64,000 nt of DNA from a virus (IMGVR_UViG_3300005836_000049:4734-68733), one strand, 5' to 3'. Shown: positions 23,811-44,005, counted from the first letter of the stretch. The notes: a model not told the origin generated them from the sequence alone. Translations and numbers: made by a program.

Positions 23811-23865
23811 TAAGTTTCCCACGGAAGAACCCGTCCTGCGTGCCGGTTCGTCGGTATAGTTGGGC
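23811..23865 (+). promoter_or_regulatory. Composite early promoter P1 (near-palindromic 11-mer TTCCCACGGAA, then CCCGTCCTG, then -10 TATAGT). ATG only 5 nt after the -10, so the mRNA is leaderless.
   Basis: One of five near-identical cassettes (also ~25181, ~27060, 43227-43280 minus, 43950-44005 minus) with fixed internal spacing. Confidence 0.55.
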
Positions 23866-24033
23866 ATGACGAACAGCATCCACTCCTTCGAGACCCTCCG
23901 CGAAGCTCGCAAGTTCCGCCGCAGCCTCAAGGCTATGGGCATCTCGGCCAAGATCTTCATGCACACGCGGACCTACACGGTCCCGTTCAAGGGCATCACG
24001 ACCTCGGTCGAGTACACGGTGGAGGTGCGCTGA
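23866..24033 (+). CDS. Small basic protein (55 aa), probably translated from a leaderless mRNA
   Basis: ATG 5 nt downstream of TATAGT. Not in the ORF track (<60 aa). TGATG coupling to the next gene. Confidence 0.4.
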   Translation: MTNSIHSFETLREARKFRRSLKAMGISAKIFMHTRTYTVPFKGITTSVEYTVEVR

Positions 24034-24230
24034 TGGGCCTCACCCCTCGCAAGGAAGCGATCGCGCGCAAGAAGGCGTGGCAGCTGGCCCTCAAGGAGGG
24101 CCGGGTCCTCCGCGCCACTGACGGAACGCGCCACGTGGCCTTCCCGACCACCAAGGCCAGGGACGAGTACCTGGCCAAGTTGGAACCCGGCATGTACGAG
24201 ATCGTTCGGGTTGAGCCGGAACCCGGCTAG
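24033..24230 (+). CDS. Small hypothetical early protein
   Basis: 65 aa, coupled start. Confidence 0.35.
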   Translation: MGLTPRKEAIARKKAWQLALKEGRVLRATDGTRHVAFPTTKARDEYLAKLEPGMYEIVRVEPEPG

Positions 24231-24239
24231 GACAACACC

Positions 24240-24425
24240 ATGGCTTGCCTCATCCACACCACACCTCAACCGCGCTTCTGCAACGACTGCGAGCGTGCCC
24301 AGCCCACCGTCATCGTCGTCCAGCGCGACAGCACCAAGCTCATCCTGCTGCCCAGCGATCGCGCCAAGTACCAGATCATCCGTCACGCCAACTCCGTCGA
24401 GGTCATCCACAAATGCTCAAGCTGA
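24240..24425 (+). CDS. Small Cys-containing protein (CNDC...)
   Basis: 61 aa. SD ctaggacaacacc before ATG. Confidence 0.35.
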   Translation: MACLIHTTPQPRFCNDCERAQPTVIVVQRDSTKLILLPSDRAKYQIIRHANSVEVIHKCSS

Positions 24426-24793
24426 ATGCCAACCAACTCTTGTGGGTCCAGGAGAAGCTCTCCTCGGTCACCCGTCAACGCCAGACCGTCCTCGACAAGA
24501 TCAACGAGGCGGCCAAGACCCCGGGGTCAGTGTCTCGCATCTTGAGTTGGAACACCACTCATCTCATGTGCCAGGACCTCCTGCTCGCTGACCTGACCAT
24601 GATCATCGGCATGACGACCGACGAGGAGAGCCAGGCCACGCTTGACTCCATGGAGGAGTGGTACACGAAGGAGATCATGCGCTGGTCGCCCCAGCACTCA
24701 ACCAGCCCGTGCTCGAACATCGAAGAGGAGTGCAAGCACGAGGTCCACCAGGAAGTCTTGAAGATGGTCCAGGCCATCAAGGAACGCAAGTGA
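24413..24793 (+). CDS. Hypothetical early protein
   Basis: 126 aa, overlapping start. Confidence 0.4.
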   Translation: MLKLNANQLLWVQEKLSSVTRQRQTVLDKINEAAKTPGSVSRILSWNTTHLMCQDLLLADLTMIIGMTTDEESQATLDSMEEWYTKEIMRWSPQHSTSPCSNIEEECKHEVHQEVLKMVQAIKERK

Positions 24794-25167
24794 AGCAACA
24801 AGTCAAGTCAGGCATCGCACAAACCGAATTCCTCGATCGTCTGCCTCGCTGGGCGAGCGATCACATCCGCATGCTGGAGAGCAACCTCAAGAGCGCTCAA
24901 CTCGAGCGCGAGGAAGTGCTGTCTAACAAGCCCACACGCACCGGCCTGGGCTACTCGTTTCGCCAAGGCGCCATGGGTGCTCCGCGCATCTGGTTGCCTG
25001 ACAACGAGCCCATCAAGTTCCTCTTCCCGGACCGCAACCATCCCGGCGATCGCTTCGTCCAGTGCTCCTACGAGGAGAACCGGAAGCAGCTGAAGGTCAT
25101 GGGGTCCGAGTCCTTCTCGGTCAACCCCTCCTCCTCCAACGTCGTCGACATCACCCTGCGGGACTGA
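24790..25167 (+). CDS. Hypothetical early protein
   Basis: GTGA overlap, 125 aa. Confidence 0.4.
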   Translation: MKQQVKSGIAQTEFLDRLPRWASDHIRMLESNLKSAQLEREEVLSNKPTRTGLGYSFRQGAMGAPRIWLPDNEPIKFLFPDRNHPGDRFVQCSYEENRKQLKVMGSESFSVNPSSSNVVDITLRD

Positions 25168-25180
25168 ACTCTGTCGGAGA

Positions 25181-25274
25181 CCACCACTTAGGATCTTCTG
25201 TGGGAATCTCCCGTCCTGCCACAGACGGGATGGGTATAGTTCCCCGTTCCAGCCAACCAACCAAGGAGACTCTC
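25181..25274 (+). promoter_or_regulatory. Composite early promoter P2 with ~30-nt CA-rich leader and SD AAGGAGA (coordinates ±2)
   Basis: ccaccacttaggatcttctgtgggaatctcccgtcctgcc...ggtatagttccccgttccagccaaccaaccaaggagactctcATG. About 90% identical over ~95 nt to P3 at ~27060. Confidence 0.55.
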
Positions 25275-25535
25275 ATGACCCAACTGCAGGTGAAGCCCAA
25301 CGATCCCTCGCGCAGCGGCAAGCTGGCCTCGCGCAGGTTCCACTTCGGCGAGTTCAATCGGTTCGCGCTCTTCGCGGTCCACACGCGGTTCGACAAGGTG
25401 ACCTGGATGGTCACTGACGCCGAGCAGATCGACGAGGCCACCGGCTTCGCCAAGATCATCCGCCAGTCAGACTCAGCCTCCGAGGCGATGTCCAGCATGG
25501 GACCCCATGCTCCCAACGTGGAGGTGACGCTGTGA
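25275..25535 (+). CDS. Small hypothetical early protein
   Basis: First gene after P2. 86 aa. Confidence 0.45.
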   Translation: MTQLQVKPNDPSRSGKLASRRFHFGEFNRFALFAVHTRFDKVTWMVTDAEQIDEATGFAKIIRQSDSASEAMSSMGPHAPNVEVTL

Positions 25536-26134
25536 GTCGCATGTGGTTCACGCATCGCTTCGAGGGCAAGGACTGCAAGGTGCCCTGCCGCGACAACCAG
25601 AAGTCCAAGCTGTACCTCGCCGAGCGTGCGGCCTTCGGCGCCGAGTTCACCGCACTGATCGGCGACGGATCCATCGAGGCAGCCGAGCGCTACGCCGAGA
25701 GCATCGTCAAGTCGGAGACCTGGATGCGCCTTCGTGCGCGCCACGGTCAGGTCCGCCCCAACGGGACCTGCTGGATCAAGGAGCAGGGCATCGAGGTCAA
25801 GCCCAAGAGTGGCGGAAGGGCGCTCGGCGGAGGTCGCCTCATCCAGCTGCCCGAGTGGGCGCGCACGAAGGCGATCGTCCTGCACGAGCTGACCCACTGC
25901 CTGGTGGGCGGTGGGATGGGCCACAACTGGCCCTTCGCTCGAGCCTACGCCGACCTCTGCGGGATGTTCCTCGGCGATGCCGCGCGCAAGGCGCTCCACG
26001 CTGCCTACAAGGTCCACCGGGTCAAGCACCATCCTCCGCGCTCCATGTCTGCGGAGGCGAAGCGTGCGCTCGCCGAGCGCGGTCGCAAGGCACTCCAGCT
26101 GTACCAGAAGGAGGCTGCCAATGAAACCCGCTGA
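25532..26134 (+). CDS. Putative zinc metallopeptidase (HExxH)
   Basis: IVLHELTHCLVGG motif. 200 aa. ATGA overlap. Confidence 0.45.
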   Translation: MSRMWFTHRFEGKDCKVPCRDNQKSKLYLAERAAFGAEFTALIGDGSIEAAERYAESIVKSETWMRLRARHGQVRPNGTCWIKEQGIEVKPKSGGRALGGGRLIQLPEWARTKAIVLHELTHCLVGGGMGHNWPFARAYADLCGMFLGDAARKALHAAYKVHRVKHHPPRSMSAEAKRALAERGRKALQLYQKEAANETR

Positions 26135-26357
26135 GCTCAAGCCGCTGATCGGCAAGAAGGTCATGGTGTACTGGAACGGTCTTCGGAGCGGGACGGTCAA
26201 GAGCGTCCCGTCCTCAGACGTCCTCTCCGTCCAGTTCCTCTTCCCTCACGGGCGCCACAAGGTGGGACTGGAGACGGTCCAGAGCGTGGTCTGGTACGGG
26301 AAGGAGCGGAAGGTCACGGACTTCCTGGAGCATCACGGCAAGGGGGAGACCAAGTGA
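26121..26357 (+). CDS. Small hypothetical protein
   Basis: 78 aa, overlapping start. Confidence 0.35.
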   Translation: MKPAELKPLIGKKVMVYWNGLRSGTVKSVPSSDVLSVQFLFPHGRHKVGLETVQSVVWYGKERKVTDFLEHHGKGETK

Positions 26358-26557
26358 TCATCAAGGTCGTCGTGGAAATCGAGGCACCGGACGGAGCCAC
26401 CCACTATGAGGGCAACCTCGCGAGCGAGTACGTGGCCTGGTGGAAGTGCAAGCAGATCGGTGCCGGTGGCGACCACTGGTTCATCTGGATCAGGGAGAAG
26501 GGTTGGGTACTCGGCAGGCACTCCGCTCCTCCTGGCCTCAAGGAGATCCCCAAGTGA
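26354..26557 (+). CDS. Small hypothetical protein
   Basis: 67 aa, GTGA overlap. Confidence 0.35.
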   Translation: MIIKVVVEIEAPDGATHYEGNLASEYVAWWKCKQIGAGGDHWFIWIREKGWVLGRHSAPPGLKEIPK

Positions 26558-26817
26558 AACCCTACCACGAGTTGCACATCACCTACATGGGTGGCCCGGC
26601 GCCGGTGTTCGATGGTTGGAGCCAGAGCATGATCCATGGTGACATCATCCTCGGCGAGGGTCCGAAGCGCTACCTGACCCGCCATGCGAGTTCGAAGGTG
26701 CCGCTGGACCTGTTGATCTACGAGATGGAGCAGCTGGCCGGGATCCTCCGCACCTACGGGCGCACGGTCCTCCGCACCAAGGTCGAGCTCGTCCTGTACG
26801 ACAAGCGCACTCCGTGA
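26554..26817 (+). CDS. Small hypothetical protein
   Basis: GTG start overlapping the upstream stop. 87 aa. Confidence 0.35.
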   Translation: MKPYHELHITYMGGPAPVFDGWSQSMIHGDIILGEGPKRYLTRHASSKVPLDLLIYEMEQLAGILRTYGRTVLRTKVELVLYDKRTP

Positions 26818-27059
26818 ACAACCGGATCCACCACATCTGGGAGGCCATCGATGACGCGCAGCTTCGGGAGCAACTGCGCCAGCGCGAGGAGATCCAAGCT
26901 CGAGCGGCTATGCGCCTGATGAAGCGTGAGGACATGAGGCTCAGCATCAGGATCGTCACCCACCCGGACCCTCTCCAGCCTACCGTCCACCACTTCCACA
27001 CTGTCCTGTTCCTGGGCTCCTTCTCCCTCCTCTTGCTGGACTCCTATCGTACAGAGTAG
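26814..27059 (+). CDS. Small hypothetical protein
   Basis: 81 aa. Stop TAG immediately precedes the GCCACCACTTACGA motif. Confidence 0.35.
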   Translation: MNNRIHHIWEAIDDAQLREQLRQREEIQARAAMRLMKREDMRLSIRIVTHPDPLQPTVHHFHTVLFLGSFSLLLLDSYRTE

Positions 27060-27154
27060 GCCACCACTTACGAACTTCTGTGGGAATTACCCGTCCTGCC
27101 ACATCCCGCGTCGGTATAGTTCCCCGTTCGATCCAACCAACCAAGGAGACTCTC
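27060..27154 (+). promoter_or_regulatory. Composite early promoter P3 (near-duplicate of P2, including the leader)
   Basis: ccaccacttacgaacttctgtgggaattacccgtcctgccaca...ggtatagttccccgttcgatccaaccaaccaaggagactctcATG. Confidence 0.55.
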
Positions 27155-27523
27155 ATGACCACCAAGCAAGCCACCTTCCAGGAACTGCTCAACCGCGCCG
27201 AAAAGCTGCGCGACGATGTCTTCACCGCTCGCGAGCCTGGCGACGACGAGATGCGCCGTGTCCAGGGTCTGCTCAGTGAGGTCCGCGACCTCATGCAGGA
27301 AGCTGTCAAGAAGGCTGGTCCCGCTCCCGAGGCTCCGGTCCTCGCCAACGCCAAGAGGGTCATCGCGGCTCTTCGCCACACCGGCGACTCGACAGTCAAC
27401 CAGCTGATCGAGAAGACCGGCCTCAATGGGGTGCCCGTGCGCGAAGCGCTCGATCTCTGCGAGCAGCTGTCGGTCGCTCGCCGCATCGGTCAATTCTGGC
27501 GCGCGACGGAGATCAAGCTGTGA
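27155..27523 (+). CDS. Putative winged-helix DNA-binding protein
   Basis: C-terminal segment STVNQLIEKTGLNGVPVREALDLCEQLSVARRIG resembles a wHTH recognition unit. First gene after P3. Candidate regulator (inference). Confidence 0.35.
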   Translation: MTTKQATFQELLNRAEKLRDDVFTAREPGDDEMRRVQGLLSEVRDLMQEAVKKAGPAPEAPVLANAKRVIAALRHTGDSTVNQLIEKTGLNGVPVREALDLCEQLSVARRIGQFWRATEIKL

Positions 27524-27792
27524 GAATCACCAACCTGATCAAAGGGTACTTCACCTGCGCCATCCGCAACCGTGCCAACAACGTCAGCATCACGCAGGTC
27601 GTCCGCAGCATCGGCTCCCCCTGGATCCGCGTCTGCTACCATCAGCTGGACATCGGGGGTGTCCGCAAGGGCGAGATCATCCTGAGCTTGCAAGAGGCCG
27701 AAGACCTCGGGGACGCTCTCACGCGCCTGGCCATCGCCAACCCCCGGACCGGCATCACTCAGGTGGACTTCGGTCGGAAGGCACCGGCGTGA
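27520..27792 (+). CDS. Small hypothetical protein
   Basis: 90 aa, coupled. Confidence 0.35.
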   Translation: MRITNLIKGYFTCAIRNRANNVSITQVVRSIGSPWIRVCYHQLDIGGVRKGEIILSLQEAEDLGDALTRLAIANPRTGITQVDFGRKAPA

Positions 27793-28016
27793 AGGTCCAC
27801 TCTGAACTGAGGGCCATGGTCCCCACCGTGGGGGACGTCTACCTGTCCAAGGTCTGGATGGGCGAGGACCGGCAGCCACTCGGCCTGAAGGTGACCCGGG
27901 TGGCCCAGGGCACCGTCTACGTGCGCCCCTGGTACGGTCTGCGGGATGATGGCAGCGAGTGGCTGGGTGCGCCCTCCCACTTCCCGGTTGGGGAGGCAAC
28001 CCGCTGGCTGCAATGA
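27789..28016 (+). CDS. Small hypothetical protein
   Basis: GTGA overlap, 75 aa. Confidence 0.35.
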   Translation: MKVHSELRAMVPTVGDVYLSKVWMGEDRQPLGLKVTRVAQGTVYVRPWYGLRDDGSEWLGAPSHFPVGEATRWLQ

Positions 28017-28081
28017 GGATTCCACAGAATCTTCTACGGCCCCTGTGTCGAGTAGCCGAAAGACTACATAGGGAGAACGCC

Positions 28082-28225
28082 ATGAAGAACCTCATCTGCC
28101 TCATCGACCCTCAGACCTACGGCCTGAACCGTGGTGTGCTCATGTTCGGTCTGCTCCTTGGCGGAGCCTTGATCTTCGGCTGCATGAAGCTCCTCGCGGT
28201 CCTGCACGCGGCTGGCATGCCGTGA
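28082..28225 (+). CDS. Small membrane protein (47 aa)
   Basis: SD gggagaac. Hydrophobic GVLMFGLLLGGALIFGCMKLLAVL. Confidence 0.35.
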   Translation: MKNLICLIDPQTYGLNRGVLMFGLLLGGALIFGCMKLLAVLHAAGMP

Positions 28226-28550: not shown

Positions 28551-29498
28551 ATGAGCACTCTCATGCGCAGCGACATCCACCGCCCCTCCACCATGGTCCC
28601 GAGCGAGTACACCCTCGCGATCGACTTCGCCATGGCAGTCCCGGAGTTGTTCCAGCCTGACCTCTTCGTGAAGGAGGCCCAGGAGATCTACCGCGAGCAC
28701 GGTGCCCAGATCCACGGCGGCATCTTCAGCTGCGACGTCTGCGGCGCCCGCTACAAGTACGGCAGCCTGTTCCGCCACGAGCCCACTGGGCAGGTCATCA
28801 GCGTCGGCCACGACTGTGCCGAGCGGCTCGAGTTCGCCGGCGACTTCGGGTCCGCCCAGCGCGAGGCCAAGCGACTCGGCCTGCTGGGCATCGAGCGCTT
28901 CGAGCGCTACTGCGGCCTGCGCGCCTTCGCTCGCGCCAATCGCATCGTCCCCAGCCTCATGCGCGACCTCAAGCTCAAGCACCCCATCACACAGGACATC
29001 CGCCGCAAGCTGATCGGCACGGGCGCCCGCTACGGTCTCACCCCCAAGCAGATCTCACTGGTCGTCAAGCTCGCCTACGACGCTCGCCAGCCTGCTGAGA
29101 AGCATGTCCCTGTCCCGATTGTCGATGGTCGCCAGCGCATCGAGGGTGTCGTGGTCGGCACCAAGATCCAGGAGTCCGACTACGGTGACCAGTTGAAGAT
29201 GACCGTCAAGGTCGTCACGCCGGAAGGCAGCTGGCTCGTGTACGGCAGCGTGCCGTCTTCTCTCTCGCAGGCGGCTTCCGAGGTCGATGACAAGCTCTAC
29301 TGCGACTGGTCGGCCTCGATGAACGCCTACCCGCACGAGACCCTTCCGGAATACAAGGCACGCGTGGGCGGTCAGATGCCGCCTGAGCGCAAGGGCATCA
29401 AGGGTCACACGGTCAGCTTCGAGGCCAAGCTGCAGGCCGGTCGCGACCCGCACTTCGCCTTCTTCAGCCGCCCGACCAAGGCGAAGATCATCGGATGA
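28551..29498 (+). CDS. Hypothetical protein with Cys-rich N-terminal (CDVCG...HDC) zinc-binding-like region
   Basis: 315 aa. 3' end converges with and overlaps the protease gene by 11 nt. Confidence 0.5.
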   Translation: MSTLMRSDIHRPSTMVPSEYTLAIDFAMAVPELFQPDLFVKEAQEIYREHGAQIHGGIFSCDVCGARYKYGSLFRHEPTGQVISVGHDCAERLEFAGDFGSAQREAKRLGLLGIERFERYCGLRAFARANRIVPSLMRDLKLKHPITQDIRRKLIGTGARYGLTPKQISLVVKLAYDARQPAEKHVPVPIVDGRQRIEGVVVGTKIQESDYGDQLKMTVKVVTPEGSWLVYGSVPSSLSQAASEVDDKLYCDWSASMNAYPHETLPEYKARVGGQMPPERKGIKGHTVSFEAKLQAGRDPHFAFFSRPTKAKIIG

Positions 29499-30138
29499 GC
29501 AGGCCTCGCTGACCAAGGCGAAGGAGCCAACCCTTCGCCTTGCACAGCGGATGGTAGAGTGCGTGGTGGAACACGTAGACCGGCGGCATGCCGAAGCTCT
29601 CGACGACCTCGATCGCAGCAGCGACTCCGAACACGCGCCCTTGCTCGTCGATCATTGGCCCACCCGAGTCGCCCATGACCGTGGGCACGGTGGCCTTGCC
29701 TCCGCCGCAGGCCAGACCCTCTTGCATCCACCACTCGTCGTTGGGTCCACCGTAGCCTGCGAGGTAGACCTGCTCACCCGGGGCAGGCTCGTCATCGAGG
29801 CGCAAGGTCACGCACTGGATGGGGAACGTGCTCAGCACCCGAACGACTGCGAGGTCCTGCGGGATGTTCCGCTCGAGTACCATGCCATCGCGGATCAGAG
29901 TGCCTTCGCGCTCCACTGCCCATCCTGCTGGTTGCTGATCGATGATGTGGTCAGCGGTCAAGAACAGGACCTCAAATTGAGACGGACCGAGTTCGTTGCA
30001 GCTGATCGGGAAGCAAGTGCCGCGACCGAGCATGCCTTGGAGCTTCCATGCGTTCACCGCTGTGGCGGTCGCTTGCTTGTGCCGAAGCGAGACGCACCCG
30101 ATCAGAACTAGACACAGAACGATCCAGAGTCTCTTCAT
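29488..30138 (-). CDS. Trypsin-like serine protease lipoprotein (opposite-strand moron)
   Basis: Signal peptide with lipobox LIGC. Catalytic triad motifs TADH, DLAVV, GDSGGP. The only minus-strand gene inside a 35-kb + strand block. Confidence 0.7.
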   Translation of the reverse strand: MKRLWIVLCLVLIGCVSLRHKQATATAVNAWKLQGMLGRGTCFPISCNELGPSQFEVLFLTADHIIDQQPAGWAVEREGTLIRDGMVLERNIPQDLAVVRVLSTFPIQCVTLRLDDEPAPGEQVYLAGYGGPNDEWWMQEGLACGGGKATVPTVMGDSGGPMIDEQGRVFGVAAAIEVVESFGMPPVYVFHHALYHPLCKAKGWLLRLGQRGLLIR

Positions 30139-30244
30139 GTCCTGATCGTACTCCTGGAAGGGGGGAAGCGAAAGGCGCACAGATCGGGTAGGATGGCAAA
30201 CAGGGCGCGAGCCCTCCTTGCGAAGGGAGGTGATCGAATCTGAG

Positions 30245-30322: not shown

Positions 30323-30589
30323 ATGACCAATTCGGACCTCGACGCTTACCTGGCGTCACCTGAGAAATCGACTCGCTGCCGTACTTGCCAAGAACATCCT
30401 GAACTCCTTGACGTGATCGTAGAGTTCTTGGGTCGCAAGGAGAACGGTGAGCACCACCTGCCCACGCAAGGCAAGAAGTCTCTTCACTCGTTTCTGCAGA
30501 CCAAGGGATTCAAGCTCAAGCCACGATGCTTGATCTACCACATCACCAGCTGCCTGAAGCTCGACCACCGAACGGGGAGAACCCTTTGA
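30323..30589 (+). CDS. Small Cys/His-rich protein (zinc-finger-like)
   Basis: RCRTCQEHPE...HHLP...CLIYHITSC. SD ctaggaacaaggaag. Confidence 0.4.
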   Translation: MTNSDLDAYLASPEKSTRCRTCQEHPELLDVIVEFLGRKENGEHHLPTQGKKSLHSFLQTKGFKLKPRCLIYHITSCLKLDHRTGRTL

Positions 30590-31875
30590 ACAACAAGGAC
30601 GACCTCAACAACTTCCTCGCGGCGCCGGACACGGTGCGCGCCAATGAGACCGAGCGGCGCAAGTACCTGTCGCGCAAGGCGAAGGAGAAGGCTGAGGAGG
30701 AGCGCGAGCGCGCGACCAAGGCGAAGAACAAGCCAACGATCGAGGACATGTTGGCCGACCTCGTGCGCTGCGCCGAAGACCCCGACACGAACCCCTTCCA
30801 CGCCTTCCGCACTCTGAGCCGGAAGCGCTACAAACAGTTCGGGTTCTATCCGATCGAGTTCATCGACGACGAGTTCGGTCAGTTCGAGCACGCCAAGCAA
30901 GTCGCCGGTCTCGAAGATCAGCCCGGCACGCGCGCGAAGAAGGCAGCGCGCGCCGAGCAGTCACGCAAGCAGCACGCGGGTCGCTACATCGAGCGGTACA
31001 TCACGCCGAACGTGTACCGACCAGATGACCGCGAGCACACCGACACGGTGTGCTTGCTGTCCATCAGTGACACCCATGCGACGTTCCTCGATCCGTTCAC
31101 TTGGGCGTGTTTCCTCCGCGCCATCGATCACCTCAAGCCGGACATCATCTACTTCAACGGTGACATCTTGGAAGGCGGGGAGATCAGCCGCTACCCGAAG
31201 ATCCCCGGCTGGACGGTCCCGCTGCAGCTGGAGTTCGACTTCGCGCGCGAGATGATGCGCCAGACCCGCGCACGGGCGCCGGACGCGGACATCATCTGGG
31301 GCGCGGGCAACCACGGACTCGATCGCATCGCCATGTACCTGACGCAGGTCGCGCCAGCCTTCTCCAAGCTGCGCAACCTCCGCTTCGACAAGCTGGCGGG
31401 TGTCGAGGAGTACGGTATCAAGCTCTCGCAGGGCGGAACGATTGCGTCCCCGGCAGGGACCGAGGATGCCCAACCCGGCACGCTCTTCTACGGGTTCTAT
31501 GTGGTCCACCACGGCACTCTGCTCGGCGAGAGTCCGTACCTGAGTGAACTGCGGGTCGCGGGTCGCTCAGGTCAGTCCGGCCACGTTCACCGGGCTGGAC
31601 TGGCCTACTCCTCCAACGAGGTCAACTCCGCGATCTCGTGGATGAGCACGCCGATGGGATGCACTCCGCGTGCTGGACGCTCCTACATGAAGGGTCGGCA
31701 CACTGGTTGGCAGCGCGGCTTCGGTGTCGCCTTCCTGCATCCTGGCGGACGCGTCCACCAGTACCCTGTCGTGACCGAGGGTGGCGTCTGCACCTTCGAA
31801 GGTCTCGTGCTGGAGGACCCCGGCTACAAGGAACCGGATCCGAGCAAGCTCTGGCTCCCGGAGTTCAAGCCTTGA
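30526..31875 (+). CDS. Calcineurin-like metallophosphoesterase (true start possibly TTG 30586, overlapping upstream TGA)
   Basis: Motifs ISDTHA, FNGDILEGG, GAGNHG, HHGTL. 449-aa ORF. Confidence 0.6.
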   Translation: MLDLPHHQLPEARPPNGENPLNNKDDLNNFLAAPDTVRANETERRKYLSRKAKEKAEEERERATKAKNKPTIEDMLADLVRCAEDPDTNPFHAFRTLSRKRYKQFGFYPIEFIDDEFGQFEHAKQVAGLEDQPGTRAKKAARAEQSRKQHAGRYIERYITPNVYRPDDREHTDTVCLLSISDTHATFLDPFTWACFLRAIDHLKPDIIYFNGDILEGGEISRYPKIPGWTVPLQLEFDFAREMMRQTRARAPDADIIWGAGNHGLDRIAMYLTQVAPAFSKLRNLRFDKLAGVEEYGIKLSQGGTIASPAGTEDAQPGTLFYGFYVVHHGTLLGESPYLSELRVAGRSGQSGHVHRAGLAYSSNEVNSAISWMSTPMGCTPRAGRSYMKGRHTGWQRGFGVAFLHPGGRVHQYPVVTEGGVCTFEGLVLEDPGYKEPDPSKLWLPEFKP

Positions 31876-32456
31876 GCTTCGGCGAACTGCTCGCAAACCT
31901 GATGGGCTGGCTGGGCGAGACCATCCAGTGGATCATCTCGTTCGTGCCGCGCTACTTGATCGTGCGCCACAACGAGCGCGCGGTGCTCTACATCGGCGGA
32001 GGAGAGCCGGTCGAGAGGGGTCCAGGACTCCATTGGTACTGGCCTTGGCGCACAGCAACGATCAAGCACCCATCGAGCACGTTCGTCCTCCGAATCCCAG
32101 CAATCTCCATGGAAACGAAGGACGGGATCGCCGTGACCGTGGGCATGGTGGTGGTCGCGCGGATCAACAAGGTCCTCAAGTACGAGGTCGAGAACTTCGA
32201 CCCTGACCAGAACATGGTTGAGTCTGCCCAAGGGGCGCTGCGCAACATCATCTCGGAGTTGACGTGGGAGCGCTTGCGAGGCGACTCGACCGAAGGGTCT
32301 GTGCTCGACAAGATGCTCTCCCTGCGCATGAGCCGGGAGTTGACGCGGTTCGGGGTCGAGGTCCTGACGTGTCGGCCCAACGACCAGGTCCGCATCGGCT
32401 GGACCGGGCGCCTGTTCGGCGTCCATGGGATGGACGAGAAGATAGATCAATTGTAG
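31872..32456 (+). CDS. SPFH/band-7 (stomatin/HflK-C-like) domain protein
   Basis: tTGa start-stop overlap. N-terminal hydrophobic segment, then VLYIGGGEPVERGPGLHWYWPW...METKDGIAVTVGMVV, characteristic of SPFH domains. Confidence 0.5.
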   Translation: MSFGELLANLMGWLGETIQWIISFVPRYLIVRHNERAVLYIGGGEPVERGPGLHWYWPWRTATIKHPSSTFVLRIPAISMETKDGIAVTVGMVVVARINKVLKYEVENFDPDQNMVESAQGALRNIISELTWERLRGDSTEGSVLDKMLSLRMSRELTRFGVEVLTCRPNDQVRIGWTGRLFGVHGMDEKIDQL

Positions 32457-39155: not shown

Positions 39156-39183
39156 ATCAAGGCCCGGTTATAGGTTGAGCCGA

Positions 39184-39490
39184 CTTGCCCTCCAAAGGGC
39201 AGTTGCCCACCCTCACGAAATGGAGGGCACGGAATGGCGAGTAGCCCAACACATTAGGACTGCGCCCTCCATACCCTCCATTCGCTTGGGACACTTTCGT
39301 CCCTGGAATAGGAAACCGGGCGCCCTCCAGAGTCTTCTCTCTTACTACCCCCTCTCTAATAGAAGAGGGTATGGAGGGAGTGGAGTTGGGCCCACACAGG
39401 CCCCACACTTTGGCCACCCGCGCGAAATGGAGGGTGACAGCAAGATCTGGAGGGGGATGGCGATCCCAAGTACCTAACGGATCCCTAACG
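39184..39490. repeat. Boundary inverted repeat copy B (partner of 1680-1984, opposite orientation)
   Basis: See copy A. Begins 29 bp after the last early gene. Followed by a further strong hairpin (accgccgaaacggcggt, 39491-39507) and two BamHI palindromes before the terS-like gene. Confidence 0.8.
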
Positions 39491-39561: not shown

Positions 39562-40395
39562 TTGGATGGGACACTGGGATGTCTGAGGATCGACGTTGGA
39601 TCTCTGAGATGGGAGGGCGCCACGGGATTGGCGATCAGAGAGCTACCGATCTCCATCGTCGACGCTCACCCCAGCGCTAGACACTCCGGAGTGGGGACGT
39701 GGTTTCTCGGTTCATCGCCTCCCACAGAACCCCTTTCGCCCCCACGTCGAATCGGCTATCCTTGGGTCGTGGGCCGTCCCAAGATTCCCGACTCCGTCAA
39801 GCAGGAGAACCTCGCCAAGGGTCTCACCCCCTCAGGCAAGGTCCCGGCTCGGAAGTCCAGACGTCAGCAGTCCGACACGTTCCAGGACAAGGACTACCGG
39901 CGCCAGCACACGCAGTTCACCCCCGAGCGCAAGAACCGCTACCTCAAGGTGCTTGAGGAGACCGGCGAGCGAGCGCTCGCGCGCGCGGACATCGGCATCA
40001 GCAGCACGACGGTCTTCGAGCATCGCTCCAAGGACCCGGCCTTCCGTGATGCCGAGGACGAGACCCTCCGGAAGCACGCAGCTGTCTACAGCACGGAGAT
40101 GAAGCGCCGCGCTGTCGAAGGCTACCAAGAGCCGGTCTACGGCTCGAAGGGCGCCGGCATGGGCATGGCGGTCGTCGGTTGGGTGACCCGCTACAGCGAT
40201 CGCTTGCTGCTCGAGCTTGCGCGCCGCTACGAACCAGAGTACACTCCACGCACGAAGATCGAGTCGGTGTCCACGGTGACGCAAGACTCTCTTGGCCTCC
40301 AAGACCTCTCGCCCGAGTCGCGCGCTGATCTGCGTCGCATCCTGGAGCGCGAGGCTGCGCGGAAGGCGGAGAGTGAAGAACCCCCCGAGGGCTGA
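39562..40395 (+). CDS. Putative terminase small subunit (HTH-containing); start uncertain
   Basis: Segment RYLKVLEETGERALARADIGISSTTVFEHRSKDPAFRDAEDE is the typical TerS-type HTH. Sits immediately upstream of TerL. Confidence 0.5.
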   Translation: MDGTLGCLRIDVGSLRWEGATGLAIRELPISIVDAHPSARHSGVGTWFLGSSPPTEPLSPPRRIGYPWVVGRPKIPDSVKQENLAKGLTPSGKVPARKSRRQQSDTFQDKDYRRQHTQFTPERKNRYLKVLEETGERALARADIGISSTTVFEHRSKDPAFRDAEDETLRKHAAVYSTEMKRRAVEGYQEPVYGSKGAGMGMAVVGWVTRYSDRLLLELARRYEPEYTPRTKIESVSTVTQDSLGLQDLSPESRADLRRILEREAARKAESEEPPEG

Positions 40396-40570
40396 TCATT
40401 GTCTGGAGTGTGGAGTCCCCCTCCGCGAGGTTCCCGCACGTCACATCGTCAGAGTCACTGAAGAAGCCAAGATGTCCCCCCTCAAGTCCAAGGAACTCCT
40501 GCTCGGCAACTACTGTTCGCCGAAGTGCGCGTTCCAAGCCTACGATCGCGGAATCCCGAGACACCTATGA
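40373..40570 (+). CDS. Small zinc-ribbon protein (CLECG...CSPKC)
   Basis: GTG 40373 is the only in-frame start that includes both Cys pairs. Overlaps the terS 3' end. Confidence 0.3.
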   Translation: MKNPPRADHCLECGVPLREVPARHIVRVTEEAKMSPLKSKELLLGNYCSPKCAFQAYDRGIPRHL

Positions 40571-40848
40571 GCGAGCCCCAAGTCATCACGGTCAAGGTCG
40601 AGGTGCCCCAAGCAGCCGACATTCAGTCCGCCCTCGAAGCACAGCGCACAATCCCAGGCATCAACACCTCCGAGTTCAAGTTGTCGATGCTCGCCATCAG
40701 CGCGGGTGTCGTGCTCATCGCGCTCGGCCTCTGGCGTCACGACGAGGCGGTCACGAGCCAAGGCCAGGAGCTCATCAAGTGGGCCGTGGCAGGCTACGCA
40801 GTCAGCCGAGGCATCTCCAAGATCAACACAACCCCGAGCGCACCATGA
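40567..40848 (+). CDS. Small membrane protein
   Basis: ATGA overlap. Transmembrane segment LSMLAISAGVVLIALGLW. Two more tiny TM ORFs follow (40845-40985, ~40984-41062). Confidence 0.4.
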   Translation: MSEPQVITVKVEVPQAADIQSALEAQRTIPGINTSEFKLSMLAISAGVVLIALGLWRHDEAVTSQGQELIKWAVAGYAVSRGISKINTTPSAP

Positions 40849-41058
40849 TGTTCAAGAAGCGTCCCCTCCTCGTCCAGCTGTGGTTGAACGACCGCAAGCT
40901 CCCCCTCGTCCCCTGGTCGATGTCGCTGGCCGAGATGGTCGGGAGCATCGCGGTTCCCGTGATGCTCTACCTTTGGCTGCGGTGAAGTACCTCAAGCGAG
41001 TCCCATGGTGGCTCGTCATCGGGCTCTCCATTGGACCCCTGCTGTACTGGCTCATCGG

Positions 41059-42537
41059 ATGACCAAGCAATCGGAAGCTCTAGACAATGCCCTCGCCGAC
41101 CCTGCGAGGGCATTGTCCGTCCTCCGCAAGCTCGACGCTGAGGACAGCCTCCTCGAGTTCATCAAGCAAGGGTGGCCGACACTCGAGCCTGGGAGGTCGT
41201 TCGTGTCGGGTTGGGCTGTCGATGCGATCTGCGAGCACCTCGAGGCGGTGTCGAAGGGGGAGATCAAGCGTCTGCTGATCAACGTCCCCCCGGGTTGCAC
41301 GAAGTCGATGACCACGAACGTGTTCTGGCCTTCGTGGGAGTGGATCAAGAACCCCCACCTCAAGTACATCAGCGCGAGCTACGCCCAAGACCTCACCACG
41401 CGCGACAACGTGCGAGGGCGCACACTCATCGAGTCCGAGTGGTACCAGGCCAATTGGGGCGCGCGGTTCAAGTTCAAGGGGGACCAGAACGCCAAGCTCC
41501 GGTACGAGAACACGGTGGGAGGGTTCCGCCAAGTGTCGTCGGTCGGCGCCTCCCTCATCGGCCACCGTGGCGACCGCATCATCGTGGACGACCCTCACGA
41601 CGTCCAAGGGGTCGAGTCAGACATCCAGCGCGACGAGTCACTGCGCTGGTTCGCGGAGACGCTGCCGACCCGACTCAATGACCTGGACGAGTCCGCCATC
41701 GTGGTCATCATGCAGAGGGTCCACGAGCGCGACGTCAGTGGCTTGATCCTCAGCAAGGAACTCGGCTACACGCACTTGTGTCTGCCGATGGAGTACGAGC
41801 CCGACCACCCCCACTTGAGCACGAGGTTCAAAGACCCTCGCACCCAAGACGGAGAGTTGCTGTGGCCAGAACGCTTCAGCCGCGAGGCGGTCGACCAGCT
41901 GAAGCTCGTCTTCCGCTCGTGGGGCGGGACCTACGCCGAGGCGGGACAGCTGCAGCAGCGTCCGGCGCCGCGCGCGGGAGGGATGTTCCAGAAGGCCGAC
42001 TTCGTGCACATCGAGCACGCTCCCTCTGGGCTGACCCATGTGACCCGGGGTTGGGACCTCGCGGCCACGAAGGACGGACTCGGCGCGCGGACCGCCGGGG
42101 TCAAGATGGCGCTCTGGCAGGGCAAGGTCGTCATCCTCGACGTCCAGATGGGACGTTGGGGACCCCACGAGGTCGAGCAGCGCATCGTGGCGTGCGCGAA
42201 GGCGGACGGCGGAAGGGTGCGCATCAGCATCCCACAGGACCCGGGTCAGGCTGGCAAGGCCCAGAAGTCCTACTTGGCCCAAGCTCTCGCCGGGTTCGAC
42301 GTCCACTTCAGCCCGGAGTCGGGCTCCAAGGAAGACCGCGCGCGTCCGCTGAGCGCACAGTGTGAGGCCGGCAACGTGTTGCTCGTCCGAGGTCCTTGGG
42401 TCGATGCCTTCATCAACGAGGCAGCGATGTTCCCGACCGGCGAGTTCAAGGACCAGGTCGACGCGGCCACGCGCGCCTACGCCGACCTGCTGAGCTCAGT
42501 CCCTCAGCAGCTTGGCGCGGCGCCGCGCTTGTTCTAG
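41059..42537 (+). CDS. Terminase large subunit
   Basis: ATGA overlap. Walker A-like PPGCTKSMT. Walker B IIVDDPHD. C-terminal nuclease-like region. 492 aa. Confidence 0.75.
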   Translation: MTKQSEALDNALADPARALSVLRKLDAEDSLLEFIKQGWPTLEPGRSFVSGWAVDAICEHLEAVSKGEIKRLLINVPPGCTKSMTTNVFWPSWEWIKNPHLKYISASYAQDLTTRDNVRGRTLIESEWYQANWGARFKFKGDQNAKLRYENTVGGFRQVSSVGASLIGHRGDRIIVDDPHDVQGVESDIQRDESLRWFAETLPTRLNDLDESAIVVIMQRVHERDVSGLILSKELGYTHLCLPMEYEPDHPHLSTRFKDPRTQDGELLWPERFSREAVDQLKLVFRSWGGTYAEAGQLQQRPAPRAGGMFQKADFVHIEHAPSGLTHVTRGWDLAATKDGLGARTAGVKMALWQGKVVILDVQMGRWGPHEVEQRIVACAKADGGRVRISIPQDPGQAGKAQKSYLAQALAGFDVHFSPESGSKEDRARPLSAQCEAGNVLLVRGPWVDAFINEAAMFPTGEFKDQVDAATRAYADLLSSVPQQLGAAPRLF

Positions 42538-42821
42538 CTTTCCTCGAAGGCGATCTTGATGTCGGCCATCTCGCGGTCGATCCAGCGCTTGGTCTTCTTC
42601 TCGTCGAGCGCGCGTAGGACGTTGCCACCGAAGAAGCTCGCGGCATCGGCCAAGTGGCGGCCAGCCTTGCTGTCGAGCAGGTTGCGGATGTCCGCCGGAG
42701 TCGCGCTCGGGTACAGGTCGCCGAGGTAGCTCGAGAGCGCGGACCAGCTGGTCAGGTCCTTGTTGCGCTCGAGTTCGCCAGCGTAACCCCAGGTCGGATT
42801 GTTGGTGGGAAGGATCTTCAT
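42534..42821 (-). CDS. Hypothetical protein (leftward early-type islet)
   Basis: 95 aa. Converges on the TerL stop. ATGA-coupled to the gene above. Confidence 0.4.
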   Translation of the reverse strand: MKILPTNNPTWGYAGELERNKDLTSWSALSSYLGDLYPSATPADIRNLLDSKAGRHLADAASFFGGNVLRALDEKKTKRWIDREMADIKIAFEES

Positions 42822-43015
42822 GAGGGTAGTGCTCCACGGACGGAATTGTCCAGTTCGTTCAGCATGCCACGGAGTTCGTCGATGCCATAGGCGAGGTTCA
42901 TGCGCACTTCTTCGCGCTCCTCGAGCGTGAGGCACTTGGTGGTCGCGCGGAAGTGGATGGCGAGAACGCTCTTCATCGTCTCGCGGATGTCTTGGCGTAT
43001 GGTTGACTTGGGCAT
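42818..43015 (-). CDS. Small hypothetical protein
   Basis: 65 aa. Confidence 0.35.
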   Translation of the reverse strand: MPKSTIRQDIRETMKSVLAIHFRATTKCLTLEEREEVRMNLAYGIDELRGMLNELDNSVRGALPS

Positions 43016-43016
43016 G

Positions 43017-43226
43017 TTACACCTTGCTGACGCGGACGTTGATGTTGACCGAACCGTTGTCGCGCATCGACACGATGGCGAACTCCTCGAGACGGACCGG
43101 GTAGCCGAGCTTGGCGGACGCTTCACGGGTCAGGAACTGGCTGAACGAGTCCATCTCGTTCTGCTTGGCGTGGAAGATGTCCATGACCGACAGGTTGAGA
43201 ACGGTGTTGCGAGTGCTGATCTTCAT
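43017..43226 (-). CDS. Small hypothetical protein, leaderless from P4
   Basis: ATG 5 nt from the -10 (tatcct) of the composite promoter. Confidence 0.4.
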   Translation of the reverse strand: MKISTRNTVLNLSVMDIFHAKQNEMDSFSQFLTREASAKLGYPVRLEEFAIVSMRDNGSVNINVRVSKV

Positions 43227-43280
43227 GCCGAAGGATACCGACGTTTCGGGTCGCAGGACGGGTTTTTCCGTGGAAAGTTT
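43227..43280 (-). promoter_or_regulatory. Composite early promoter P4 (minus strand)
   Basis: Minus-strand reading: tttccacggaaaaacccgtcctgcgacccgaaacgtcggtatccttcggcATG. Confidence 0.5.
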
Positions 43281-43304
43281 TCCTCTTCCCACGTAGGCCA
43301 CCAC

Positions 43305-43949
43305 TTAGGACTTGGCCTTGTGCTTGCGGAGGGGGCTGTACCCACGAGGGCCAGCATAGACCACCTTCTTGCAGTGGGGGCAGCGACGGTAGCGGCTGAA
43401 CCCAGCGGCGCCCTTCGATTCGCCAGCCTTGCCACTGCCGGGGCAGAGCAGAGCGGCCTGGGAGGCTTCTGCAGCCAGGCGCAGCGCCTTGGCAGCGAGG
43501 AAGGCGGGGTGGTTCTGCACAGCGGGGAAGCAGATCGCACAGGCGTTGTCCCCGTGCTCGGCCACCATGGCCAGTTCGTCGCAGCCGCTAAGGGTGGGCA
43601 GCCAGCCGAAAAGGGTGTTCCAGTGGCAGGACGAGCAGTTGCGCTCGCGGTGAACGTGTCCGCCGGGCACCAGGAAGTAGCGCGACCAGCCACCCCGGCG
43701 CACGAACTCGGCGTCGTAGGGGGCGATCAGCGCGCGCTGGGCGGTGATCTTGGCGTGCTGTTCGGCAACCAGAACCTCCAGCTGCTCAACCGTCTTGGCG
43801 CTGTAGTAGCGGTAGCGCTCGGGGAACTGCACTCGGTCCTGGATCTGCTTCTCGAGCGCCGCAAGGTTCTGGCGGAATCCAGCCAGCGGCTCTTCCAGCT
43901 TGGCGATCGTGGTGTCGATCTCGCGCGGGGTCTGCTTGGTGATGTCCAT
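43305..43949 (-). CDS. Cys-rich hypothetical protein
   Basis: 214 aa. CSSCHW, CAICF, CPHCKK motifs. Leaderless from P5. Confidence 0.45.
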   Translation of the reverse strand: MDITKQTPREIDTTIAKLEEPLAGFRQNLAALEKQIQDRVQFPERYRYYSAKTVEQLEVLVAEQHAKITAQRALIAPYDAEFVRRGGWSRYFLVPGGHVHRERNCSSCHWNTLFGWLPTLSGCDELAMVAEHGDNACAICFPAVQNHPAFLAAKALRLAAEASQAALLCPGSGKAGESKGAAGFSRYRRCPHCKKVVYAGPRGYSPLRKHKAKS

Positions 43950-44005
43950 GTAGAACTATATCGACGCCGGGTGGCCCCAGGACGGGTTTTTCCGTGGGAA
44001 AGTTA
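43950..44005 (-). promoter_or_regulatory. Composite early promoter P5 (minus strand)
   Basis: Minus-strand reading: tttcccacggaaaaacccgtcctggggccacccggcgtcgatatagttctacATG. Confidence 0.5.

What the first reader, a model, noticed from the sequence alone, without database searches (positions are those of the whole stretch)
23811..44005. Five copies of a composite early promoter cassette with a near-palindromic 11-mer, three of them leaderless
At 23811-23865 (+), ~25181 (+), ~27060 (+), 43227-43280 (-) and 43950-44005 (-) the same module recurs: TTCCCAC(G/A)GAA (palindromic TTCC-N3-GGAA, present in either orientation), then 1-2 nt, then CCCGTCCTG, then N16-17, then a TATAGT-like -10. In three copies the ATG sits 5 nt after the -10, implying leaderless mRNAs. 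The other two share an identical 30-nt CA-rich leader with SD AAGGAGA. The fixed spacing and the palindromic upstream element suggest a dimeric activator or repressor operator at about -50 (class-I-like position) controlling an early regulon. One candidate is the winged-helix protein encoded directly behind P3.
Basis: seen in the sequence. Interest (0 to 1): 0.7.

Follow-up and report, generated by a model that had tools for sequence, protein, structure and literature searches.

The report
Repeated phage promoter cassette, often leaderless
An uncultured relative of Pseudomonas phage YuA carries five near-identical promoter-like cassettes with a normal -10 box but an odd, strictly conserved -35 region; three sit so close to the ATG that the mRNA would have no leader, and related phages share the design, so it is a new variant of a known kind of phage-specific promoter.

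Summary
Five cassettes lie in intergenic DNA, each pointing the same way as its downstream gene. The order of boxes is:
- TAAGTGGTGG (either orientation)
- TTCCCACRGAA (either orientation)
- 3 nt
- CCCGTCCTG
- 16-17 nt
- (CGTC)GGTATAGT (TATCCT in one copy)

A composite pattern matches 4 times against 0.1 expected. The clade pattern CG[AT]CCT-N16-18-TAnnnT hits only these five sites in 64 kb.

In three copies the ATG starts 5 nt after the -10 hexamer. The other two share a 29-nt leader with a GGAGA ribosome-binding site.

The window is a novel phage syntenic with Pseudomonas phage YuA. YuA's record annotates repeated "sigma70 promoters requiring a phage-encoded cofactor", one of them also just after the primase.

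Eight metagenomic relatives carry the same architecture:
GGAWT(C)-N3-4-CGWCCT-N17-TAYNNT-N5-purine.
It is often leaderless there too. The closest relative keeps all boxes while the spacers drift.

Best reading: a phage-specific promoter class read by host RNA polymerase, with a -35 region that is not TTGACA-like and probably needs an unidentified factor.

"Early" is unsupported. The proposed regulator gp27155-27523 is unlikely, because the closest relative keeps the boxes but lacks that gene, and no helix-turn-helix could be confirmed.

New variant of a known kind; moderate interest.

The parts
23784..23865 (+). Cassette P1. Boxes: A' TAAGTCCTGG 23784-23793 (its TAA is the stop of the upstream gene); B TTCCCACGGAA 23816-23826; C CCCGTCCTG 23830-23838; -10 TATAGT 23855-23860. 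The predicted +1 is the A of ATG 23866, so the mRNA is leaderless.
   Evidence: ortholog in L013 at 13091-13171
23866..24033 (+). g1, 55 aa, the first gene behind P1. The TAG inside TATAGT is an in-frame stop, so the ORF cannot extend upstream.
   Evidence: GC3 0.93; the homolog in L016 (787-957) also starts 5 nt after a -10 hexamer
25181..25274 (+). Cassette P2. Boxes: A CCACCACTTA 25181-25190; B TTCTGTGGGAA 25196-25206; C 25210-25218; -10 TATAGT 25235-25240. Predicted +1 is G 25246. A 29-nt CA-rich leader carries GGAGA, followed by ATG 25275.
   Evidence: ortholog at L013 14570-14674
25275..25535 (+). g2, 86 aa, the first gene behind P2. It is conserved in L010, L012, L013 and L015, and sits behind a cassette there too.
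27061..27154 (+). Cassette P3. Boxes: A CCACCACTTA 27061-27070; B TTCTGTGGGAA 27076-27086; C 27090-27098; -10 TATAGT 27115-27120. Predicted +1 is G 27126, followed by a leader and ATG 27155.
   Evidence: ortholog at L013 16252-16316, where it is leaderless
The N-terminal ~55 aa are conserved in 3 homologs; the C-terminal half is not. The gene is absent from L013.
43227..43307 (-). Cassette P4. Boxes: A TAAGTGGTGG 43307-43298 (its TAA is the stop of g5); B TTTCCACGGAA 43276-43266; C 43262-43254; -10 TATCCT 43237-43232. ATG 43226 follows, so the mRNA is leaderless.
43017..43226 (-). g4, 69 aa, the first gene behind P4. It is followed by 43015-42818 and 42821-42534 on the same strand.
43950..44032 (-). 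Cassette P5. Boxes: A TAAGTGGTGG 44032-44023; B TTCCCACGGAA 44000-43990; C 43986-43978; 17-nt spacer; -10 TATAGT 43960-43955. ATG 43949 follows, so the mRNA is leaderless.
43305..43949 (-). g5, 214 aa (phrog_2433, function unknown). The N-terminus MDITKQTPREID matches the L016 homolog MKPITEQTPSEID, which supports the annotated start.
44050..44085 (-). Intrinsic-terminator-like hairpin (16 pairs followed by a T-rich tail) ending the upstream 92-aa gene, directly before P5.
44454..44510 (-). Possible degenerate member P6: TTTTCTGAGGCT...TACACT (44465-44460), 6 nt, then the ATG at 44453 of a 92-aa gene. This would be leaderless.
   Evidence: the L016 homolog has CCCGTCTC-N17-TATGGT-N6-ATG
39719..39768 (+). 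Possible degenerate member P7, in front of the small terminase gene: CTCCCACAGAA (39719-39729), 3 nt, CTTTCGCCC, 15 nt, TATCCT (39757-39762), 6 nt, then GTG at 39769.

Best explanation
The five cassettes are promoters of a phage-specific class.

Proposed mechanism:
- Host RNA polymerase, through its primary sigma factor, uses the near-consensus -10 hexamer (TATAGT or TATCCT).
- Transcription starts at the purine 6 nt downstream of that hexamer.
- In P1, P4 and P5 this purine is the A of the ATG, so those mRNAs are leaderless.
- In P2 and P3 it is a G, which opens a conserved 29-nt leader with a strong GGAGA ribosome-binding site.
- The -35 position holds CGTCCT (inside CCCGTCCTG) instead of a TTGACA-like hexamer. 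It is preceded at a fixed distance by GGAA(T), the 3' end of the 11-mer.
- This -50 to -28 block is recognised by an unidentified trans-acting factor. That factor is probably phage-encoded and either replaces or assists sigma region 4, as in activator-dependent or sigma-appropriation promoters.
- The cassettes head successive transcription units of small accessory genes: three rightward after the primase, and two leftward between the large terminase and the portal.

Shown here: sequence, spacing, orientation, statistics, and conservation across relatives.

Inferred: promoter activity, the start sites, leaderless translation, dependence on a factor, and which polymerase reads them.
For: 1. Non-random, intergenic and co-oriented with the downstream gene on both strands.

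2. Selection acts on the boxes, not the spacers.
- Within the genome the 16-17-nt spacers differ while the boxes are identical.
- In L013 (primase 84% identical) the three orthologous cassettes keep A, C and D and the GTGGGA/TCCCAC core of B. The differences fall mainly in the -35/-10 spacer and other inter-box stretches.

3. The architecture is clade-wide. Nineteen sites on nine contigs fit GGAWT(C)-N3-4-C(G/A)NCCT-N17-TAYNNT-N5-purine. At least nine of them are leaderless.

4. The start geometry is consistent.
- The purine falls at the 6th nt after the hexamer in 14 of the 19 sites, leaderless and leadered alike; in the other five it falls at the 7th or 9th nt.
- An in-frame TAG inside TATAGT blocks any longer ORF at P1 and P5.
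- Homolog N-termini agree with the annotated starts.

5. YuA gives a precedent.
- The window is syntenic with phage YuA. YuA's record annotates five 28-bp repeats as 'putative sigma70 promoter requiring phage-encoded cofactor', one just after the primase, where P1 also lies.
- Nine YuA transcription start sites share that motif, and earlier reporter assays saw no activity without the phage (PMC10914365).

6. The -35 region is not host-like.
- A consensus scan finds none of the cassettes.
- The window does contain three TTGACG-N17-TAnnnT sites in front of other genes.
- No RNA polymerase or sigma gene is present in the window.
Against: - There are no transcription data. The phage is uncultured and its host is unknown.
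- No candidate factor was identified. No gene in the window matches a transcription-regulator family.
- The -35-region hexamer varies little across the clade (CGTCCT, CGACCT, CAGCCT). That would also fit recognition by a conserved host factor or an alternative host sigma.
- A near-consensus -10 may allow weak factor-independent initiation.
- P7 would need a leaderless GTG start, which E. coli-type ribosomes use poorly (my own knowledge).
- The function of the TAAGTGGTGG box, which occurs in either orientation and at variable distance, is unexplained.
Confidence: 0.6

Rival explanations
1. These are ordinary host-sigma70 early promoters driven mainly by the strong -10. The conserved upstream boxes (11-mer, CCCGTCCTG, TAAGTGGTGG) are operators for a phage repressor that shuts these units off later.
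For: - The -10 is near consensus, with an invariant G at -14 in all five copies.
- The genes behind the cassettes are small accessory ORFs, typical of early 'host takeover' genes.
- The 11-mer is nearly palindromic.
Against: - There is no TTGACA-like -35 and no TGn extended -10, so unaided activity should be weak.
- Operators that only repress usually overlap the -10 or +1, yet the -35/-10 spacer is the least conserved part.
- The palindrome is not kept in relatives.
- The YuA repeats were inactive without the phage.
Confidence: 0.22
2. The cassettes are read by an alternative sigma factor, either a host one or a phage one. CGWCCT would be its -35 element and (CGTC)GGTATAGT its -10 element.
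For: - Relatives L011 and L015 encode a Sigma70_r2/r4 protein between the metallophosphoesterase and Band_7 genes.
- The -35-like hexamer is conserved across the clade at the canonical 17-nt spacing.
Against: - The window and L013 have the cassette but no sigma gene at that position, and tblastn with the L011 sigma finds nothing in the window.
- ECF-type spacing (GGAAC-N16-17-CGTC) does not fit: the distance is 18-19 nt, and P2 lacks CGTC.
- A start after CGTC would give short leaders with no ribosome-binding site, instead of the exact -10/ATG register that is seen.
Confidence: 0.12
3. These are not primarily promoters. They are junction sequences of mobile gene cassettes (recombination hot spots), or RNA-level elements on read-through transcripts such as a processing or antitermination hairpin.
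For: - Gene content directly behind the cassettes is shuffled between relatives. g3 is absent from L013. In L016 the g1 homolog sits with the g5 homolog.
- The 5-nt arms flanking CCCGTCCTG are complementary in both subtypes, with the arms swapped: CCACG..CGTGG against TGTGG..CCACA. 75.6% of cells pair, and 0 of 500 shuffles reach this.
Against: - Predicted folds are no more stable than shuffled sequence (z from -0.6 to +1.7).
- The arm pairing fails in P4, P5 and L016, and rests on essentially two lineages.
- No Rfam family matches.
- The strict orientation and the -10/ATG register are not explained by this reading.
- Shuffling behind promoters is what moron-like modules are expected to show, so it is compatible with promoter function.
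Confidence: 0.06

Closest known systems
Repeated phage-specific promoters of Pseudomonas phage YuA (Yuavirus). The GenBank record NC_010116 annotates them as 'putative sigma70 promoter requiring phage-encoded cofactor'. Putzeys et al. 2024 (PMC10914365) report nine transcription start sites with this motif.
   Same: - The genomes are syntenic, with the same run of helicase, ribonucleotide reductase, thymidine-hypermodification genes, DNA polymerase A and primase.
- Both carry several near-identical intergenic repeats co-oriented with the genes.
- In both, one repeat lies just after the primase.
- Both have a sigma70-like -10 (TATACT in YuA, TATAGT here).

   Different: - The sequences are unrelated. 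YuA has CTTTACTTCTTCGGA-N6-7-CACTATACT with a TTTACT -35; this motif has 0 matches in the window at up to 3 mismatches.
- Here the -35 position is CGTCCT, and there are two extra upstream boxes.
- The YuA repeats are followed by leaders of about 20-80 nt rather than leaderless starts.
- YuA has none on the opposite strand.
Phage T4 middle promoters (MotA/AsiA sigma appropriation)
   Same: [quoted passage not shown] In T4 the box is recognised by a phage activator while sigma region 4 is remodelled (PMC7403470). This matches the architecture seen here.
   Different: - The MotA box, (a/t)(a/t)(a/t)TGCTT(t/c)A centred at -30, is not present.
- No MotA or AsiA homolog was detected by PHROGs or Pfam.
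- The box here is centred at about -32 and lies 16-17 nt from the -10.
Middle and late promoters of Thermus phage P23-45 (Berdygulova et al. 2011; leaderless detail recalled from memory, not verified here)
   Same: A phage promoter class that does not depend on a -35 element while phage proteins alter sigma region 4 (gp39; PMC7403470). As I recall, many of the transcripts are leaderless.
   Different: - The P23-45 promoters are of the extended -10 (TG) class. Here the TG motif is absent and a conserved -35-region box is present.
- The phage lineage is unrelated.
Sigma70-like promoters of roseophage RDJL Phi 1 (Xiamenvirus)
   Same: - It is the closest cultured relative by major capsid protein (55%).
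- It has the same layout of large terminase, leftward small-gene block, then portal.
- Its promoters have a TATCCT -10 and a CA-rich leader ending in GGAGAC.

   Different: Its -35 is TTTACA, which is host-like. It has no CGWCCT or GGAWT boxes, and no leaderless junctions were seen in the intergenic regions inspected.

Membership tests
Canonical sigma70 promoter (-35 TTGACA, 17±1 nt, -10 TATAAT) | -10 hexamer close to TATAAT, with A at position 2 and T at position 6 | tested here: met
   TATAGT (5/6) in four copies and TATCCT (4/6) in P4
Canonical sigma70 promoter (-35 TTGACA, 17±1 nt, -10 TATAAT) | -35 hexamer close to TTGACA, 16-18 nt upstream of the -10 | tested here: not met
   The hexamer at 17 nt is CGTCCT, with no position matching TTGACA (0/6). 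The consensus scan reports none of the five sites.
Canonical sigma70 promoter (-35 TTGACA, 17±1 nt, -10 TATAAT) | Experimentally mapped transcription start | not testable with these tools
   Uncultured metagenomic phage; no RNA data
Extended -10 promoter (TGnTATAAT) | T at -15 and G at -14 directly upstream of the -10 | tested here: not met
   The upstream bases are CGG, GGG or CGA. Only the G at -14 is present in the window, and it is not kept in relatives.
YuA-type phage-specific repeat promoters | Several near-identical intergenic copies, co-oriented with genes, in a YuA-syntenic genome, including one after the primase | tested here: met
YuA-type phage-specific repeat promoters | The YuA motif CTTTACTTCTTCGGA...CACTATACT | tested here: not met
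   0 matches with up to 3 mismatches
YuA-type phage-specific repeat promoters | Inactive without phage-encoded factor(s), active in infection | not testable with these tools
   Known for YuA only from PMC10914365
T4 MotA/AsiA middle promoters | MotA box at -30, plus motA and asiA genes | tested here: not met
   No MotA-box sequence, and no MotA or AsiA family hit in PHROGs or Pfam
ECF-sigma promoter (GGAAC-N16-17-CGTC) | AAC and CGT motifs 16-17 nt apart, plus a cognate ECF sigma gene | tested here: not met
   The distance is 18-19 nt and P2 lacks CGTC. There is no sigma gene in the window.
Leaderless mRNA genes (-10 TANNNT, 5-7 nt, start codon at +1) | The start codon begins 5-7 nt after a TANNNT hexamer, with no ribosome-binding site and no longer ORF possible | tested here: met
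   P1, P4 and P5 have 5 nt. At P1 and P5 an in-frame TAG inside TATAGT blocks extension. The homolog starts agree.
Leaderless mRNA genes (-10 TANNNT, 5-7 nt, start codon at +1) | The 5' end of the mRNA is mapped at the start codon, and the mRNA is translated | not testable with these tools
   No RNA or proteome data
Winged-helix DNA-binding protein (claim for gp27155-27523) | A significant match to an HTH or winged-helix family, or such a fold | tested here: inconclusive
   Pfam HTH_9 at E=0.036, 14.6 bits against a cut-off of 23.4. AlphaFold2 pLDDT is 61, lower still in the C-terminal part. No PDB sequence relative.

The most novel reading that the evidence does not exclude
A whole clade of YuA/RDJL-like phages of Gram-negative hosts may have replaced the -35 element by a bipartite box, GGAWT-N3-4-CGWCCT. 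This box would be read by an undiscovered phage-encoded sigma-region-4 substitute or activator (a MotA/AsiA analogue with no sequence similarity). The clade would couple this class to systematic leaderless expression, including a GTG-initiated small terminase. That implies the phage also relies on, or promotes, leaderless translation in its host.
Probability: 0.25. Interest if true: 0.65.

Novelty: new variant of a known kind. Interest (0 to 1): 0.42.

Why it matters
Repeated phage-specific promoters mark the points where a phage takes over or re-programs host transcription. The factors that read them (T4 MotA/AsiA, P23-45 gp39, Xp10 p7) have taught much about RNA polymerase. For YuA-like phages the factor is still unknown.

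This clade offers a sharply defined, comparatively validated promoter consensus: 19 sites on 9 contigs. That consensus can be used in three ways:
- to search for the factor,
- to annotate transcription units in uncultured relatives,
- to test leaderless expression in a phage of a probably Gram-negative host.

It is not a new principle, and everything beyond the sequence pattern is inference.

Tried and rejected
1. Exact-motif scans with GGAA-N3-CCCGTCCTG-N15-18-TATAGT.
- IMG/VR gave 0 hits.
- GTDB genomes gave 3 single hits in unrelated taxa.
- JGI metagenomes gave 2 single hits. Three of the five single hits were read (L003, L006, L007) and are in AT-rich or unrelated contexts.
- All are chance matches, so relatives had to be found through proteins.

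2. Megablast of 23-28 kb against phage genomes found nothing.

3. Exact-protein look-up of the source contig failed. The 70,898-bp JGI contig is only known to exist.

4. g3 as regulator. Pfam, AlphaFold2 and the PDB search were all uninformative. The fold search was not run because the model was too poor. The gene's absence from L013 argues against the idea.

5. An RNA or DNA hairpin spanning the -35 box. The covariation count is suggestive, but the folds have z-scores near 0, so it was rejected as a stable structure.

6. A phage sigma factor. One is present in relatives L011 and L015 but not in the window.

7. ECF-type and sigma54-type readings. The spacing and motifs do not fit.

8. Rfam and tRNA scans found nothing.

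9. Host identification remains unresolved.
- The best protein matches are phages of Pseudomonas, Roseobacter, Rhizobium, Shewanella and Xanthomonas.
- Relative L014 carries an OMP beta-barrel gene.
- A Gram-negative, possibly alphaproteobacterial, host is likely but unproven.

10. Related-locus searches in IMG/VR with g5 and with the g3 alignment found no relatives.

Full report
**1. The observation**

All five sites are present as described. Anchoring on the exact 9-mer CCCGTCCTG gives six occurrences in the 64-kb window. Five are at 23830(+), 25210(+), 27090(+), 43262(-) and 43986(-). The sixth (5803) lies inside a helicase gene and has none of the other boxes.

Aligned, the cassette reads as follows:
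- box A, TAAGTGGTGG
- 5 or 22 nt
- box B, TTCCCACGGAA or TTCTGTGGGAA
- 3 nt
- box C, CCCGTCCTG
- 16 nt (17 in P5)
- box D, (CGTC)GGTATAGTT, with TATCCT in P4

Single short boxes allowed 1-2 mismatches are no commoner than chance. The exact and composite forms are strongly non-random:
- GGTATAGT occurs 3 times and TATAGTT 4 times in the whole window, always in a cassette.
- TAAGTGGTGG occurs 4 times exactly, always in a cassette.
- A composite pattern gives 4 matches against 0.10 expected.
- CG[AT]CCT-N16-18-TAnnnT matches only the five cassettes on both strands.

Small corrections to the finding:
- The B-C gap is 3 nt, not 1-2.
- P4 has a 1-nt deletion in B.
- The two leaders are 32/34 identical rather than identical. 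P2 and P3 share 103 nt at 87%.

**2. Context**

A codon-usage gene call places every cassette in an intergenic gap, pointing the same way as the next gene.
- P1, P2 and P3 head three successive rightward units of small ORFs after the primase (20703-23099).
- P5 and P4 head leftward units in a small opposite-strand block between the large terminase (41059-42537) and the portal (44694-46181).
- P5 is directly preceded by a 16-pair terminator-like hairpin.

The window is a novel phage. It has no nucleotide match to 50,697 phage records. Its gene order follows Pseudomonas phage YuA: helicases, ribonucleotide reductase, a thymidine-hypermodification-like gene set, DNA polymerase A, dCMP deaminase, primase, small ORFs, terminase, structural genes.

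The major capsid protein is closest to roseophage RDJL Phi 1 (55%). That phage also has the large-terminase / leftward-block / portal layout.

No RNA polymerase gene, sigma factor or recognised transcription regulator was found in the window.

**3. Leaderless geometry**

In P1, P4 and P5 the ATG begins 5 nt after the -10 hexamer.
- At P1 and P5 the TAG inside TATAGT is an in-frame stop, so no longer ORF is possible.
- g5's N-terminus matches that of its 69%-identical homolog in L016.
- The g1 homolog in L016 again starts 5 nt after a -10-like hexamer.

In P2 and P3 the 6th base after the hexamer is a G. It is followed by a 29-nt CA-rich leader ending in AAGGAGACTCTC-ATG. Across 19 related sites the 6th base after the hexamer is a purine in 14, whether or not it is the start codon; in the other five the purine falls at the 7th or 9th base. 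This is the expected signature of a fixed transcription start.

Two further starts in the window have the same geometry:
- a 92-aa gene (TACACT-N6-ATG at 44453, minus strand; its L016 homolog has TATGGT-N6-ATG),
- the small terminase (TATCCT-N6-GTG at 39769, preceded by CTCCCACAGAA).

I list these as possible degenerate members, P6 and P7.

**4. Relatives**

The exact motif is absent from IMG/VR, GTDB genomes and JGI metagenomes. Only single hits turned up, consistent with chance (those read are in unrelated contexts). Protein-guided searches found eight related contigs.

L013 (primase 84% identical) has three orthologous cassettes. They carry the same C and D boxes and the same A box at all three sites, while most of the differences fall in the -35/-10 spacer and other inter-box stretches. 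This pattern indicates purifying selection on the boxes.

More distant relatives (L010-L012, L014-L016, L001; primase 57-66%) have the same architecture with variant boxes. An example is GATTCCCGGATTC-CTG-CGACCT-N17-TATCCT-N6-ATG. The clade consensus is:

GGA(A/T)T(C) - N3-4 - C(G/A)NCCT - N17 - TA(T/C)N(C/G/T)T - N5 - purine.

At least nine of the 19 sites are leaderless. The leadered ones share the GGAGACTCT-N-ATG ribosome-binding module.

**5.

The cassette is very probably a promoter, and the leaderless inference is reasonable. Three points do not hold.

(a) "Early" has no basis.
- The hexamer at the -35 position (CGTCCT) has no similarity to TTGACA.
- The consensus scan finds none of the cassettes.
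- Three TTGACG-N17-TAnnnT sites exist elsewhere in the window.
- In YuA, the similarly placed repeats are annotated as needing a phage cofactor. They were reported inactive outside infection, although nine transcription start sites use them.

(b) The palindrome is only partly conserved.
- Only GGA(A/T)T keeps its register to the -35 box.
- The left half is lost in L013 P2'.
- The half-site spacing varies from 2 to 5 nt across the clade.

(c) gp27155-27523 is an unlikely regulator.
- L013 keeps the cassette but lacks the gene. There the P3 ortholog drives, leaderless, the homolog of window 27789-28016.
- Only the N-terminal 55 residues are conserved among its three homologs.
- Helix-turn-helix evidence is below threshold.

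**6. Mechanism proposed**

Host RNA polymerase with its primary sigma recognises the -10. The -50 to -28 block (GGAAT plus CGTCCT) is read by an unidentified factor, probably phage-encoded, that substitutes for or assists sigma region 4. This works like activator-dependent or sigma-appropriation promoters (T4 MotA/AsiA; PMC7403470). It is not a member of that family: there is no MotA box and there are no homologs.

Rivals are host-sigma70-only promoters with repressor operators, an alternative sigma, or a non-promoter element. A sigma70-family gene is present in L011 and L015 but absent from the window and L013.

A swapped-arm inverted repeat flanks the -35 box: CCACG..CGTGG in P1-type copies and TGTGG..CCACA in P2/P3-type copies. 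It shows apparent covariation. However, it rests on two lineages, fails in three copies, and gives no stable fold. I leave it unexplained.

The role of box A, which flips orientation together with the core of box B and lies at 5, 16 or 22 nt from B, is also unexplained.

**7. Verdict**

This is a new sequence variant, with added upstream boxes and frequent leaderless junctions, of a known kind: the repeated phage-specific promoters of YuA-like siphoviruses. Interest is moderate.

Noticed in passing
window 1701-1980 and 39188-39466: A long inverted repeat of about 260-280 nt, 75-85% complementary. It lies in the two largest intergenic gaps, upstream of the first helicase and upstream of the small terminase. 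Each arm carries 8 copies of CCCTCCA/TGGAGGG, so 16 of the 24 copies in the window fall here, against 12 expected in total. It could be an array of protein-binding sites such as an origin, a pac site or regulatory sites. YuA has its two consensus sigma70 promoters at the corresponding positions.
   Followed up: partly
window 8404-16456: A gene set resembling the thymidine-hypermodification clusters of YuA/M6-type phages. It includes a PLP enzyme ('threonine dehydratase'), a radical-SAM protein ('photolyase'), kinase-like proteins hitting phrog_800, a glucosyltransferase-like protein, a thymidylate-synthase homolog and an HD-domain protein. The homologs in L013 carry HMUDK_hel and TAGT domains. 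The phage DNA is probably modified.
   Followed up: partly
window 6599-6627, 44658-44686, 54083-54111 (all +): Three TTGACG-N17-TAnnnT sites lie directly in front of the ribonucleotide reductase, portal and 54126 genes, with only 7-14 nt to the ATG. This may be a second, host-like promoter class, also with very short or no leaders.
   Followed up: no
L011 2926-3591; L015 18184-18699: Relatives encode a Sigma70_r2/r4 protein inserted between the metallophosphoesterase and Band_7 genes. The window (30586-31875, then 31872-32456) and L013 lack it.
   Followed up: partly
window 27155-27523 and homologs P0002-P0004: g3 has a highly conserved N-terminal 55-residue helical part (…FTAREPGDDEMRR.QGLLSEVRDL…) joined to a C-terminal half that is not alignable between the window and its relatives. 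This looks like a domain swap. The function is unknown.
   Followed up: partly
window 50052-50555: Six or more tandem 63-nt (21-aa) repeats, 64-72% identical, inside a 703-aa ORF (48766-50877) in the head-gene region. The ORF has no PHROG match.
   Followed up: no
window 42534-44453 (minus strand): A leftward block of five small genes sits between the large terminase and the portal. Roseophage RDJL Phi 1 has the same arrangement (gp64-66). In L016 the 92-aa gene, a g1 homolog and the g5 homolog are linked in a different order, which suggests cassette-wise shuffling of promoter-plus-gene modules.
   Followed up: partly
window 2038-2075 (+): A strong terminator-like hairpin, GCAGCCCCG-N-CGGGGCTGC followed by TTTTCTCT, lies in the gap upstream of the first helicase gene. 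The consensus scan did not list it.
   Followed up: no
window 29488-30180 (minus strand): An isolated opposite-strand gene encodes a trypsin-like serine protease (Trypsin_2, E=1e-13). It is conserved in L013.
   Followed up: no
L014 16779-17360: A relative with 60% primase identity carries a gene with an OMP beta-barrel domain (PF13505). This hints that the clade infects diderm (Gram-negative) hosts.
   Followed up: no
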